Origin: Malacoraja senta
Lineage: Eukaryota
Direction: 5' to 3'
Assembly: GCA_038087875.1 (NCBI GenBank)
Contig: CM075988.1
Coordinates: 21,206,001-21,270,000, forward strand
DNA: 64,000 nt
Both the position numbers and the translations under genes were made by a program. The stretch's first letter is position 1, and every line of letters starts with the position of its first letter. Shown here piece after piece: positions 38,211-39,500 of this stretch. A model generated the notes under the pieces. It did not search any database, had not been told where the DNA came from, and saw nothing but the letters and a program-made list of their open reading frames with translations.

Positions 38211-38645
38211 ACCAGCGTAGAAACTTTAGGAGAGTCTTTTCGTAAGAGATAGATGGGAATGGGCATTAAATCAATCCATTCCAATGTGCTCTTCATATAT
38301 TTGTAGTGATGGATGTTTCTACGAAAAACATTAACATCAGATCTTGGCTCCATGTTACAGGAAAGATGTTGTCAAGCTACAAAGGGTGCAGAGAAGATTT
38401 ACGAGGATGTTGCCTGGACTCAAGGGTCAGAGGTTGAGTAGGCCGGGACTCTATTCCTTGGAGTGCAGTAGGATGAGGGGAGATCTTATAGAGGTGTATG
38501 AAATCATGAGAGGAATAGATCGGGTAGATGCACAGAATCTCTTGCCCATGGTAGGGGAATCGAGCACCCGAGGACATAGGTTTACAGTGAAGGGGAATCG
38601 ATTTAATAGGAATCTGAGGGGTAACTTTTTCACACAAAGGGTGGT

Positions 38646-38789
38646 CTTTTCTTCTTCTTGCGTATGGCGTGCACATCCTAAAGTTGTAGGACAACTTGTT
38701 CTATTTGATCTTATTTGATTGTGCACGCCAGGTTGATTGCATTTGTTGAAAACAAGGTGGACCACGTGAAGGTTGCAATCTCCCACCCC
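38646..38789 (-). mobile_element. 144-bp non-autonomous retroposon (Ingi/Vingi-like tail) inserted into a CR1 fragment
   Basis: TSD acaaagggtggt (38634-38645 and 38790-38801). Minus-strand tail gccatacgcaagaagaagaaaaag. Perfect 11-bp stem 38665-38675/38720-38730. No Pol III A/B boxes. Clade assignment is recalled from tail similarity. Confidence 0.8.
38735..38789 (-). ncRNA. HDV-like self-cleaving ribozyme (predicted)
   Basis: Minus strand: P1 GGGGTGG/CCACCTT with G.U at pair 1, P2 GATTGCA/TGCAATC, P3 ACC/GGT, L3 TTCACGT, single P1.1 C-G, minimal P4 TT-TTC-AA, J4/2 CAAA with putative catalytic C at 38745. Confidence 0.8.
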
Positions 38790-38886
38790 ACAAAGGGTGG
38801 TGGGTGTATGAAAGAAGCTGCCAGAGGAGGTAGTTGAGACGGACTATCCCAAAGTTTAAGAAACAGTTCGACAGGTACATGGATAG

Positions 38887-39500
38887 TAGACAAAAATGCT
38901 GGAGAAACTCAACGGGTGCGGCAGCATCTATGGAGCGAAGGAAATAGGCAACGTTTGGGGCCGAAACCCTTCTTCAGACTGATGCGGAGGAGGGTGGGAG
39001 GGGGGGGGGGGGCGGGAAGAAGAAAGGAAGAGGAGGAGCCAGAGGGCTGAGGGAGAGATGAGAAGGGGAGGAGACAGCAAGGGCTACCGGAAATTGGAGA
39101 AGTCAATGTTCAAGCCACTGGGGTGCAGACTACCCAAGCGGAATATGAGGTGCTGCTCCTCCTATTTCCGGTGGTGCTCACTCTGGCAATGGAGGAGGCC
39201 CAGGACAGAAAGGTAGGATTCGGAATGGGAGGGGGAGTTGAAGTGCTGAGCCACCGGGAGATCAGGTTGGTTAATATCTCCTCCCCTTCTCAGCTCTCCC
39301 TCAGCCCTCTGGCTCCTCCTCTTCCTTTCTTCTTCCCGCCCCACCCCCCCCCCCCACCCTACATCAGTCTGAAGAAGGATTTCGGCCCAAAACGTTGCCT
39401 ATTTCCTTTGCTCCACAGATGCTGCCACACCCACCCGCTGAGTTTCCCCAGCATTTTTGTCTACCTTCGATTTTTCAGCATCTGCAGTTCCTTCTTGAAC
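38887..39500. mobile_element. Penelope-like element, 5'-truncated with inverted pseudo-LTR
   Basis: 16-bp TSD acaggtacatggatag (38871-38886 and 39501-39516). Minus strand encodes the C-terminus typical of PLE GIY-YIG regions (VAQHFNSPSHS...EEQHLIFRLG...GLNIDFS). Two inverted terminal repeats. Confidence 0.9.

What the first reader, a model, noticed from the sequence alone, without database searches (positions are those of the whole stretch)
38646..38789. 144-bp retroposon made of an HDV-like ribozyme, a stem-loop and an (AAG)n tail
Seen in sequence: a TSD-flanked insert in a CR1 fragment. Its first 55 nt on the minus strand (GGGGTGG GA GATTGCA ACC TTCACGT GGT CCACCTT G TTTTCAA CAAA TGCAATC) satisfy the HDV-like nested double pseudoknot: 7-bp P1 with G.U first pair, perfect 7-bp P2, 3-bp P3, 7-nt L3, single P1.1 pair, tiny P4, and C-A-A-A in J4/2. 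The predicted cleavage site (5' of G at 38789) coincides with the element/TSD junction to within one base. The rest is an 11-bp stem and a catacgc(aag)n tail, with no Pol III boxes and no ORF. Established: R2, RTE and Ingi/L1Tc-type retrotransposons use 5' HDV-like ribozymes to process their transcripts. Inference: a minimal non-autonomous element that cuts its own 5' end out of host read-through RNA and borrows a Vingi/Ingi-like LINE machinery. I cannot tell whether this family has been described in elasmobranchs.
Basis: partly seen in the sequence, partly recalled or inferred. Interest (0 to 1): 0.85.

Follow-up and report, generated by a model that had tools for sequence, protein, structure and literature searches.

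The report
Short retroposon headed by HDV-like ribozyme
A 144-base mobile element found about 8,000 times in this genome starts with a very small RNA fold of the self-cutting HDV/CPEB3 ribozyme type, which probably trims the element's own front end before a partner LINE copies it back into DNA.

Summary
Window 38646-38789 (minus strand) is a retroposon copy flanked by a 12-13 nt target-site duplication, inside a CR1-type ORF2 remnant. The family has about 8,000 copies in the genome. Of 30 copies read, 27 start with the same GGGGTGGGAG.

The first 54-55 nt fit a P4-less HDV-like double pseudoknot. Three results argue against chance. A strict descriptor gave 0 full hits in 30 Mb of random sequence. 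P1, P2 and P3 covary with five other ribozyme-headed families in this genome. A covariance model built without this family finds exactly 38789-38735 as the only significant hit in the window.

Those sister families pass Rfam's CPEB3_ribozyme threshold (up to 64 bits). One of them is a 3.1-kb APE+RT LINE with the same (AAG)n tail and 9-12 nt duplications. Its 5' end matches published Vingi 5' ends, so a Vingi-like partner is supported.

Self-cleavage, the source of transcription and trans-mobilisation were not tested. This is a new variant of a known kind. By-product: the mammalian CPEB3 ribozyme looks like a domesticated Vingi 5' ribozyme.

The parts
38790..38801 (-). 5' copy of the target-site duplication, ACCACCCTTTGT on the minus strand
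38783..38789 (-). P1 5' strand GGGGUGG; predicted cleavage is 5' of G38789, the first base of the element
38781..38782 (-). J1/2 (GA)
38774..38780 (-). P2 5' strand GAUUGCA
38771..38773 (-). P3 5' strand ACC
38764..38770 (-). L3 UUCACGU, identical to the L3 of the Rfam CPEB3_ribozyme consensus; its C at 38768 would pair with G38753 (P1.1)
38761..38763 (-). P3 3' strand GGU
38754..38760 (-). P1 3' strand CCACCUU (most copies have CCGCCCU or CCACCCU)
38753..38753 (-). G37, the 3' partner of the single P1.1 pair
   Evidence: both columns are invariant, so this pair is untested by covariation
38746..38752 (-). 7-nt linker UUUUCAA in place of P4 (UUUCGA in most copies)
38742..38745 (-). J4/2 CAAA; the presumed catalytic C is at 38745; the second base is polymorphic in the family (A, G, U, C)
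38735..38741 (-). P2 3' strand UGCAAUC; end of the ribozyme
38665..38730 (-). Body: a 10-bp stem (38721-38730 with 38665-38674) closing an A-rich interior; a possible RT-recognition hairpin
   Evidence: MFE folds only; its function is inferred
38646..38659 (-). (AAG)n tail, AAGAAGAAGAAAAG
38634..38645 (-). 3' copy of the target-site duplication

Best explanation
The insert is one copy of a young family of about 8,000 short (~140 nt) non-autonomous non-LTR retroposons.

Its first 54-55 nt encode a minimal, P4-less self-cleaving ribozyme of the HDV-like class. It belongs to the sequence group that also holds the mammalian CPEB3 ribozyme and the 5' ends of Vingi-clade LINEs.

Proposed life cycle:
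1. A copy is transcribed as part of a longer RNA started upstream (inferred; no promoter was found in the element).
2. The ribozyme folds and cuts 5' of G1, giving an RNA that starts exactly at the element's first base (inferred from the fold, its covariation and the fixed 5' end).
3. The 3' hairpin and (AAG)n tail are used by the endonuclease/reverse transcriptase of a compact 3.1-kb APE-type LINE. That LINE lives in the same genome and carries the same kind of 5' ribozyme and the same tail (the LINE is shown; its use by the SINE is inferred).
4. Target-primed reverse transcription runs to the cleaved 5' end and leaves 9-13 nt target-site duplications (duplications and full-length copies are shown).
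For: Fixed 5' end and retroposition marks:
- 27 of 30 copies start GGGGTGGGAG and 26 of 30 have exact TSDs.
- 7,952 5' ends against 8,449 3' ends genome-wide.
- An empty-site joint with 13 shared letters appears in 4 of 4 runs.

Fold:
- My strict descriptor (7-bp P1 with G.U first pair, 7-bp P2, 3-bp P3, L3 C, G37, CNAA) hit 49 places in 357,020 bases on both strands. All lie in this family (47 rows, 46 distinct places) or LINE A (2).
- The same descriptor with A, G or U in place of the catalytic C hit 0, 0 and 1.
- In 30 Mb of random sequence, 43 positions passed the P1+P3 stage and 0 passed the full descriptor.

Covariation on 17 sequences of 6 families:
- 93.3% of cells are paired, against 38-47% when partners are slid by 1-3 columns.
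- 15 of 22 pairs show changes on both sides, against 0-4 when slid.
- 0 of 500 shuffles reach the observed covariation score.
- P1 has 3, P2 has 6 and P3 has 2 compensatory pairs.

Blind model R1 (14 sequences of the other five families):
- One significant hit in the 64-kb window, at 38789-38735, 25.2 bits, E 6.7e-4, end to end; the next best is 11.3 bits.
- It finds 29 of 29 other copies at their first 54 nt, at 23.9-30.0 bits.

Rfam:
- The only families matching the 65-68 nt stretch at E up to 10 are HDV-F-prausnitzii and CPEB3_ribozyme, in the same register and starting at G1.
- L3 UUCACGU and the following CCCUGU are identical to the CPEB3 consensus.

Partner LINE A:
- 3,107 bp; Exo_endo_phos_2 plus RVT_1; Cys/His end; stop codon about 32 nt before the tail.
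- 3 of 3 full-length copies have (AAG)n tails and 9-12 nt TSDs abutting GGGGATC.
- Copies are 96.4-99.5% alike over up to 373 nt, so the LINE is also young.

High-frequency family variants sit where the fold tolerates them: U5 pairing with A or G at position 32, the L4 CpG, and the second base of J4/2.
Against: - No cleavage assay and no RNA 5'-end data exist. No listed run is on record as RNA, and the runs laid are contigs, which cannot show ends.
- The SINE ribozyme scores far below Rfam gathering thresholds: 12.3-14.4 bits against 35 and 44.
- Whether so short a P4 replacement is active in this sequence context was not tested.
- The SINE shares no sequence with LINE A beyond the ribozyme core and the tail.
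- No LINE with the SINE's exact 3' 24-mer or 15-mer, or its ribozyme 3' half, was found. The partnership therefore rests on the tail, TSD size, ribozyme type and similar age.
- The 17 sequences in the covariation test were picked from 32 for an intact 5' strand (15 left out), which inflates the percentage paired. It does not create the compensatory changes between families.
- The sister minimal family B starts with four G, and the U that should pair with G1 has no partner. The cleavage-site rule is therefore not uniform in this group.
Confidence: 0.75

Rival explanations
1. The fold is a real but now dispensable relic of a LINE 5' end. The uniform 5' end is set by transcription initiation at G1 from an internal or acquired promoter (as Pr77 does together with the ribozyme in L1Tc), not by self-cleavage.
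For: - No cleavage data exist.
- L1Tc/NARTc combine a promoter and a ribozyme in the same 77 nt (abstracts of PMC3383444 and PMC3185411 in the listing).
- The P4-less form may be slow.
- The Rfam scores are low.
Against: - No A or B box, no tRNA-like head and no small-RNA family match.
- All three helices are kept by compensatory change while the rest of the element has no likeness to the LINE.
- 46 distinct copies still satisfy a strict descriptor with the catalytic C.
Confidence: 0.12
2. The 5' structure matters for retroposition but not through cleavage. It would act as a stable 5' knot that protects the RNA, stops reverse transcriptase at a fixed base, or binds the LINE protein.
For: - The review PMC13708176 (passages) describes the R2 ribozyme fold as giving cap-like protection against 5' exonucleases in template RNAs.
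- Covariation shows selection for the fold, not for catalysis.
Against: - The catalytic C, the G.U pair at the cleavage site, L3 and J4/2 are also kept. A purely structural knot would not need them.
- These roles can coexist with cleavage.
Confidence: 0.1
3. Chance resemblance: an ordinary SINE whose first 55 nt happen to fit an HDV-like descriptor.
For: The Rfam E-values are only 0.4-0.9.
Against: - 0 full descriptor hits in 30 Mb of random sequence.
- The blind model hit at E 6.7e-4, at the exact coordinates.
- Covariation with five sister families.
- L3 and CCCUGU identical to CPEB3.
Confidence: 0.01

Closest known systems
NARTc and RIME, the non-autonomous partners of L1Tc/ingi in trypanosomatids, with the L1TcRz HDV-like ribozyme in their first 77 nt (PMC3185411, PMC3383444, PMC4035085: abstracts in the listing; also named in passages of PMC5786205)
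   Same: A short ORF-less non-LTR element that keeps a 5' HDV-like ribozyme, whose cleavage site is the element's first base, and that depends on a LINE of the Ingi/Vingi group.
   Different: Those are plain internal-deletion derivatives sharing both ends with their LINE, occur in protists, and have a ribozyme that overlaps a promoter. Here no sequence outside the ribozyme core and tail is shared with the LINE found. The ribozyme lacks P4, and the host is an animal genome with CR1 elements.
R2 SIDEs, internally deleted R2 elements that keep the R2 ribozyme (PMC3414825, abstract in the listing)
   Same: A non-autonomous element with a 5' self-cleaving HDV-like ribozyme and a 3' end used by the LINE protein.
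   Different: R2 is site-specific in 28S rDNA and is co-transcribed with rRNA. This family is dispersed, with variable TSDs.
Vingi-clade LINEs, their internally deleted derivatives, and SINE2-1_AMi (PMC5786205: main-text passages; supplement alignments)
   Same: The supplement prints the 5' ends of Vingi-2_Gav (2-74), Vingi-4_Crp (1-64) and Vingi-1_BF (8-69), plus Vingi-2_SPur 395-451. All carry GGGGCCAT..AGCGTTC(A/T)CGTCGCGG.CCCTGTCAG...CTGCGAAT.CT, the same motif as families D and E and LINE A here. Vingi-2_Gav is 3,128 bp against 3,107 bp for LINE A. Vingi is one of four clades said to make bipartite non-autonomous LINEs.
   Different: That paper's list of clades with a 5' ribozyme (R1, R2, R4, RTE, Ingi, LOA) does not include Vingi, and it does not call this motif a ribozyme. 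The present SINE has replaced all three helices and lost P4. No RT phylogeny was made here.
Mammalian CPEB3 ribozyme (Rfam RF00622)
   Same: Same fold. L3 UUCACGU and CCCUGU are identical and J4/2 is CGAA in most copies. Sister families in this genome score 37-64 bits against a gathering score of 35. A decayed family D copy (L102) is identical at 54 of 67 aligned positions, including the P4 stem CAGAUUCU/GAAUCUG (my count on the alignment printed).
   Different: CPEB3 is a single-copy intronic sequence conserved in mammals, with a P4. This one is a multi-copy retroposon head without P4, scoring 12.3 bits.
Minimal (P4-less) HDV-like ribozymes and theta ribozymes of gut phages (PMC10879173: passages and section 7)
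   Same: An HDV-like core of about 50-55 nt with no P4 helix.
   Different: Those are reported almost only from Caudoviricetes, often next to tRNA genes. Their eukaryote search covered human, mouse and protists. This one heads an animal retroposon and descends from a P4-bearing Vingi/CPEB3-type ribozyme.

Membership tests
HDV-like (delta-like) self-cleaving ribozymes | Strand order of a nested double pseudoknot: P1, P2, P3, L3, P3', P1', P1.1, (P4), J4/2, P2' | tested here: met
   L3-anchored parse of the window copy and three other copies: P1 7/7, P3 3/3, P2 7/7
HDV-like (delta-like) self-cleaving ribozymes | Helices supported by compensatory change | tested here: met
   15 of 22 pairs changed on both sides; 93.3% of cells paired against 38-47% when slid; 0 of 500 shuffles reach the score. 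Caveat: 17 of 32 sequences were chosen.
HDV-like (delta-like) self-cleaving ribozymes | G1 at the cleavage site forming a G.U wobble at the base of P1 | tested here: met
   G38789 with U38754. G.U at this pair in 10 of 17 aligned sequences; the other 7 are 6 unpaired and 1 gap, and include all four family B rows, whose first aligned base is a flanking U.
HDV-like (delta-like) self-cleaving ribozymes | Catalytic C as the first base of J4/2 | tested here: met
   C38745. Descriptor hits: 49 with C against 0, 0 and 1 with A, G and U. This is sequence presence only.
HDV-like (delta-like) self-cleaving ribozymes | Score at or above the gathering threshold of an Rfam HDV-like model | tested here: not met
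   RF02682: 13.5 and 14.4 bits against 44. RF00622: 12.3 bits against 35.
HDV-like (delta-like) self-cleaving ribozymes | Divalent-ion-dependent self-scission, abolished by C-to-U at the catalytic C | not testable with these tools
   Needs a bench assay.
CPEB3-type ribozymes (RF00622 sequence group, shared with Vingi 5' ends) | Conserved core: L3 UUCACGU, CCCUGU after P1', J4/2 C-N-A-A | tested here: met
   Alignments. A model built without this family gives 25.2 bits, E 6.7e-4, at 38789-38735.
CPEB3-type ribozymes (RF00622 sequence group, shared with Vingi 5' ends) | P4 helix | tested here: not met
   Only 6-7 nt lie between G37 and the catalytic C.
Minimal P4-less HDV-like ribozymes | No P4, with the core otherwise complete | tested here: met
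   Family B in the same genome has nearly the same linker (GUUUCCA-CCAA against GUUUCGA-CAAA in the copies read; CGAA in 13 of the 47 SINE rows).
SINE in the strict sense (Pol III head from tRNA, 5S, 7SL or snRNA) | Small-RNA-derived head with internal A and B boxes | tested here: not met
   No box within 2 mismatches, no tRNA, no small-RNA family at E up to 10.
Bipartite non-autonomous LINE (RIME, NARTc, SIDE, Vingi derivatives) | 5' and 3' ends derived from the autonomous LINE | tested here: inconclusive
   The ribozyme core and the (AAG)n tail are shared with LINE A, and nothing else. No LINE with the SINE's exact ends was found. The parent may be another or an extinct family.
Bipartite non-autonomous LINE (RIME, NARTc, SIDE, Vingi derivatives) | Marks of LINE-mediated insertion: TSD, 3' repeat tail, occasional 5' truncation | tested here: met
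   empty-site joint.
Vingi clade (for the partner LINE A) | Compact single-ORF APE+RT element without RNase H | tested here: inconclusive
   3,107 bp. PF14529 and PF00078 were the only Pfam hits on the two ORF pieces. Cys/His end. The ORF of the copy read is broken into pieces, and the stretch between them was not scanned.
Vingi clade (for the partner LINE A) | RT groups with Vingi in a phylogeny | not tested
   No reference RT set was at hand. The protein atlas gave only generic RVT_1 clusters.
Vingi clade (for the partner LINE A) | 5' end homologous to described Vingi 5' ends | tested here: met
   Comparison by eye with the alignments printed in the supplement of PMC5786205.

The most novel reading that the evidence does not exclude
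The CPEB3-type ribozyme is the ancestral 5'-processing ribozyme of the Vingi clade of LINEs.

- The same motif stands at or near the 5' ends of Vingi elements of gharial, crocodile, amphioxus and sea urchin, as printed in a 2018 supplement.
- In this genome it heads a young 3.1-kb LINE and at least five further ribozyme-headed families; two of them, this SINE and family B, were read end to end as short elements.
- On this reading, the single-copy, memory-linked CPEB3 intron ribozyme of mammals is a domesticated Vingi (or Vingi-derived SINE) 5' end.
- The present 8,000-copy SINE shows that the same lineage could shed P4 and rewrite all three helices while staying mobile. That would make it the smallest natural eukaryotic HDV-like ribozyme candidate.

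I found no paper saying this: 'Vingi' with 'CPEB3' returned 0 papers, and 'CPEB3-like' with 'ribozyme' returned 1 unrelated paper. Of the three papers holding both 'Vingi' and 'ribozyme', all were read in passages and none makes the link. The library lacks most subscription journals and the Repbase and Dfam notes.
Probability: 0.7. Interest if true: 0.85.

Novelty: new variant of a known kind. Interest (0 to 1): 0.72.

Why it matters
- **Mechanism.** It shows how a promoter-less 140-nt element can reach about 8,000 near-full-length copies with a base-exact 5' end. That extends ribozyme-mediated 5' processing from R2, RTE and L1Tc-type elements to a very successful short retroposon of an animal genome.
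- **Ribozyme biology.** It offers a natural 54-nt, P4-less HDV-like candidate outside phages. It comes with P4-bearing sister families from the same genome, which serve as built-in comparisons.
[quoted passage not shown] The families here, and the published Vingi 5' ends, supply such outgroups. This makes the origin of the CPEB3 ribozyme directly testable, and bears on the debate about where the HDV ribozyme came from.
- **Applied use.** Vingi elements are being developed as gene-insertion tools that keep their 5' UTR (PMC13708176). Knowing that this UTR starts with a ribozyme has practical value.

Tried and rejected
- **Earlier notes of this scan:** nothing on this genome, this sequence or these words.
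- **RNA evidence:** no RNA holder is listed. The four runs laid are contigs, and the table of molecule starts and ends is empty, so nothing can be said about RNA 5' ends.
- **A LINE sharing the SINE's exact ends.** I used IUPAC 'not this base' patterns beside the 3' 24-mer, the ribozyme 3' half and the 3' 15-mer. They gave 25, 44 and 7 places, all deleted, 5'-truncated or nested SINE copies. A look for other (AAG)n tails in the 357 kb held found 7 places, none a LINE end.
- **blastn-short of the SINE against LINE A:** only the tail and 7-10 nt chance words.
- **Rfam over 451 nt:** no ribozyme hit; only narrower scans with laxer filters showed the HDV-like matches.
- **A free, unanchored structure parse:** it slid by one base in several families and was replaced by an L3-anchored parse.
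- **Protein atlas on the RT:** generic RVT_1 clusters only, no clade.
- **The '102,231 first-look candidates'** are not a copy number. A 22-nt core pattern of the GCG-P3 families occurs only 135 times.
- **Papers not held**: Ruminski 2011, Webb and Luptak 2011, Webb 2009, Kojima 2011. What I say of them is recalled or taken from papers that cite them.
Full report
**1. What is there**

On the minus strand the window reads ...ACCACCCTTTGT | GGGGTGGGAG...AAGAAGAAGAAAAG | ACCACCCTTTGTG.... The 144-nt insert (38789 down to 38646) is therefore bracketed by a 12-nt direct repeat. It is 13 nt if the ambiguous G is counted.

The flanks translate into one decayed reading frame...RGDLIEVYEIMRGIDRVD...RGNFFTQRV before the insert and ...KLPEEVVE... 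after it. I recognise this from memory as the C-terminal end of a CR1-type ORF2.

When contigs of four public runs were laid on the region, all four contained records that join 38632 to 38789. These skip 156 nt, with 13 letters common to both sides. That is the uninterrupted form of the host repeat and confirms both the insertion and its duplication.

**2. It is a large, young family with a fixed 5' end**

- The genome that holds the window (G000, 1.94 Gb) gave 831 first-look candidates. All 40 that were scored are 94-100% identical, and 36 of 40 begin at query base 1.
- The first 31 nt occur 7,952 times with up to 2 mismatches, and a 31-mer near the 3' end 8,449 times. The reversed controls gave 0. 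Most copies are therefore full length.
- In 30 copies read with flanks, 27 start GGGGTGGGAG; the other three differ only in the first one or two G.
- 26 of the 30 have an exact direct repeat of 6-12 nt (19 of them 10-12 nt). In 19 the repeat abuts G1 directly and in 7 it lies one or two bases off.
- Tails are (AAG)3-5.
- Severely 5'-truncated copies with their own duplications also exist (L052, L046), as expected of target-primed reverse transcription.
- The window copy is a slightly decayed member. Most copies have C at position 35 and G at 32 of P1', a CpG in the linker and one U fewer. In three of the four runs the second base of J4/2 is mostly G, giving CGAA instead of CAAA.

**3. The fold**

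- ViennaRNA finds P1+P3 as the best fold of nt 1-37 (-10.0 kcal/mol), and P2+P3 plus a separate 10-bp 3' stem for the whole element.
- I wrote a strict descriptor: 7-bp P1 with a G.U first pair, 7-bp P2, 3-bp Watson-Crick P3, C at L3 position 3, G after P1', and C-N-A-A before P2'.
- It hit 49 places in the 357,020 bases held (both strands). Of these, 47 rows are copies of this family (46 distinct places, since the window and L001 are the same locus) and 2 are copies of the LINE described below.
- The same descriptor with A, G or U at the catalytic position hit 0, 0 and 1. I took this control idea from the theta-ribozyme paper (PMC10879173, section 7).
- In 30 Mb of first-order Markov sequence modelled on the window, 43 positions passed the P1+P3 stage and none passed the whole descriptor.
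- The chance that a retroposon's first base fits by accident is therefore negligible.

**4. Rfam**

- A 451-nt scan found nothing relevant.
- On 68 nt of the window, the only family at E up to 10 is HDV-F-prausnitzii (13.5 bits, E 0.92). It aligns end to end from 38789 to 38735, with P1 and P3 aligned as proposed.
- On a copy closer to the family majority (L020), the only two families are HDV-F-prausnitzii (14.4 bits) and CPEB3_ribozyme (12.3 bits, E 0.4), in the same register.
- Both scores are far below the gathering scores (44 and 35), so formal Rfam membership is not met.
- However, L3 (UUCACGU) and the CCCUGU that follows P1' are letter-for-letter those of the CPEB3 consensus.

**5. Sister families and covariation**

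Searching the whole genome with RF00622 scored 59 candidates. 39 of them were at or above the gathering score, the best at 64.2 bits. I fetched 28 of these places as short stretches. They fall into at least five families, each with its own helices:

| Family | P1 | P2 | P3 | P4 |
|---|---|---|---|---|
| A | GGGGAUC/GAUCCCU | GGUAGAA/UUCUACC | GCG/CGC | 8-bp |
| B | GGGGUC/GGCCCC | GGAAAGA/UCUUUCC | GCG/CGC | none |
| C | GGGGGUC/GACCCCU | AGUAGAA/UUCUACU | not noted | long |
| D | GGGGGCC/GGUCCCU | AGCAGGA/UCCUGCU | not noted | CAGAUUCU/GAAUCUG |
| E | GGGGGCC/GGUCCCU | AGAAGGA/UCCUUCU | not noted | not noted |

L3, CCCUGU and C-N-A-A stay constant across the families.

Eight of ten of these loci pass the CPEB3 gathering score when scanned on their own.

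An alignment of 17 sequences (3 of this SINE and 14 of families A-E) was scored against the pseudoknotted structure:

- 93.3% of cells are paired, against 38-47% with partners slid by 1-3 columns.
- 15 of 22 pairs show changes on both sides, against 0-4 when slid.
- 0 of 500 shuffles reach the covariation score.
- P1, P2, P3 and P4 contribute 3, 6, 2 and 4 compensatory pairs.

Caveat on selection: the 17 were chosen from 32 parsed loci for an intact 5' strand. Fifteen were left out: one duplicate ribozyme, two without the L3 motif, and twelve that were 5'-truncated or decayed.

The SINE differs from all sister families at P1 positions 5-7, at six of the seven P2 pairs and at two of the three P3 pairs, always with the partner changed too.

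**6. Blind test**

A covariance model (R1; 67 positions, 15 pairs: P2, P3, P4) was built from the 14 sister sequences only.

- With filters off over the whole 64-kb window, its single significant match is 38789-38735 on the minus strand: 25.2 bits, E 6.7e-4, model positions 1-67. The runner-up scores 11.3 bits, E 1.3.
- Over 29 other loci it finds 29 of 29 copies at their first 54 nt (23.9-30.0 bits), plus one stray at E 0.99.

The SINE head is thus a divergent member of this ribozyme group.

Its linker and J4/2 (GUUUCGA-CAAA in the copies read, CGAA in 13 of the 47 SINE rows) are close to those of the other P4-less family B (GUUUCCA-CCAA). This suggests a single loss of P4 followed by wholesale compensatory change.

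**7. The likely partner**

Family A is a LINE.

- One copy (L096 plus L101) is 3,107 bp long. It starts GGGGAUC directly after AATCACAACCT and ends ...ACACGAAAAGAAGAAG followed by the same AATCACAACCT.
- Two further copies have GACAGAACAAAA and CAACAAAGA as duplications, with the same tail. So 3 of 3 full-length copies examined show the pattern.
- The copy read encodes an Exo_endo_phos_2 domain and RVT_1, and ends in CECGEEDHTMQHCLVC...* about 32 nt before the tail. Its frame is broken in that copy.
- Copies are 96.4-99.5% alike over up to 373 nt, so the LINE is young like the SINE.
- Apart from the ribozyme core and the tail, the SINE has no likeness to this LINE. No LINE carrying the SINE's exact ends was found. 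The pairing is therefore an inference from tail, duplication length, ribozyme type and age.

Clade:

- The supplement of Kojima 2018 (PMC5786205) prints the 5' ends of Vingi-2_Gav (positions 2-74), Vingi-4_Crp (1-64), Vingi-1_BF (8-69) and Vingi-2_SPur (395-451). All carry the same GGGGCCAT...GCGTTCACGTCGCG...CCCTGTCAG...CTGCGAATTCTGCT motif.
- Vingi-2_Gav is listed there at 3,128 bp.
No RT tree was made.

**8. How it most likely works**

A copy lying in any transcribed region is read through. The nascent head folds and cuts 5' of G1. The RNA, now starting at the element's first base and closed by a compact knot, is bound at its 3' hairpin and (AAG)n tail by the LINE's protein. The protein nicks the target and reverse-transcribes to the 5' end.

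- Shown: the fold and its selection, the fixed 5' end, the duplications, the tail, and the existence of a matching LINE.
- Inferred: catalysis, the source of transcription, and the partner.
- Rivals, in order: a promoter sets the 5' end and the fold is a relic; the knot serves structurally without cutting; chance.

**9. Comparison with what is known**

Non-autonomous elements with a 5' HDV-like ribozyme are known: NARTc and RIME with L1Tc/ingi, and R2 SIDEs (abstracts). Kojima 2018 names RTE, Ingi, Vingi and R2 as the clades that spawn bipartite non-autonomous LINEs. [quoted passage not shown]

New here:
- the family itself;
- its lack of any LINE-derived sequence beyond core and tail;
- its P4-less 54-nt ribozyme. 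Minimal HDV-like ribozymes are so far described almost only from phages (PMC10879173);
- the recognition that Vingi heads are CPEB3-type ribozymes.

**10. The wider lead**

Bendixsen et al. [quoted passage not shown]

- Retroposon heads in this genome reach 64 bits on the mammalian model.
- A decayed family D copy matches the Rfam consensus at 54 of 67 aligned positions, including the P4 stem (my count).
- By eye, the printed Vingi-2_Gav head differs from the consensus at 2 of the first 40 positions and at none of the last 14.
- The simplest reading is that the mammalian ribozyme is a domesticated Vingi-type 5' end.
- I found no paper that says so (passages read). The library misses most subscription journals, and I could not see Repbase or Dfam notes.
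- I did not verify what kind of animal the genome belongs to.

Noticed in passing
G000 places, e.g. loci L093-L121: The genome holds retroposon heads that pass Rfam's mammalian CPEB3_ribozyme threshold: 39 of 59 scored, best 64.2 bits. The same motif is printed for Vingi 5' ends of gharial, crocodile, amphioxus and sea urchin in a 2018 supplement. This points to a Vingi origin of the CPEB3 ribozyme.
   Followed up: partly
L098, L099, L100, L113, L117, L120: Family B is a second P4-less, ribozyme-headed short retroposon, with tail ...GATAAGAAG and TSDs seen in L098 and L100. It begins with only four G, so the U that should pair with G1 has no partner. In 5 of 6 copies the base before the element is T, and in two cases this T belongs to the TSD. 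Either its P1 is 6 bp without the G.U pair, or the first base is lost on copying.
   Followed up: no
G000:C2:2650559-3776432: Six forward-strand copies of a core variant GCGTTCACGTCGCGGACCCTGT lie within about 1.1 Mb of contig C2, with a seventh related one on the other strand. This looks like a local or segmental amplification rather than dispersed retroposition.
   Followed up: no
many places, e.g. G000:C1:33492166-33492187: About two dozen listed copies carry GGCCCCGTT instead of GGCCCCTGT after P1'. This may be a further family or a shared deletion in the junction that forms P1.1.
   Followed up: no
L066:1470-1720; also L058 and L081: The 55-nt ribozyme head is followed directly by unrelated sequence. 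In L066 that stretch reads like a LINE ORF (...KKDGLHLNPRG...). These are either nested insertions or chimeric, template-switched copies.
   Followed up: no
window 38744 (J4/2 second base); copies: The base after the presumed catalytic C is polymorphic in the family. Among the 47 SINE rows, G occurs in 13, U in 2 and C in 1, with A in the rest. In the laid runs G makes up 39-98% of depth. The variation sits where HDV-like ribozymes tolerate any base.
   Followed up: partly
window 38881-38990; also the 3' flanks in L028 and L092: A hairpin-like repeat (GACAAAAATGCTGGAGAAACTCA...GGCCGAAACCCTTCTTCAGACTGA) lies next to the CR1 remnant and recurs beside other SINE copies. It is an abundant repeat of this genome that I did not classify.
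   Followed up: no
L101:2535-2734: The LINE's ORF stops about 32 nt before the (AAG)n tail, so its 3' UTR is extremely short. This may explain why its non-autonomous riders share little more than the tail.
   Followed up: no
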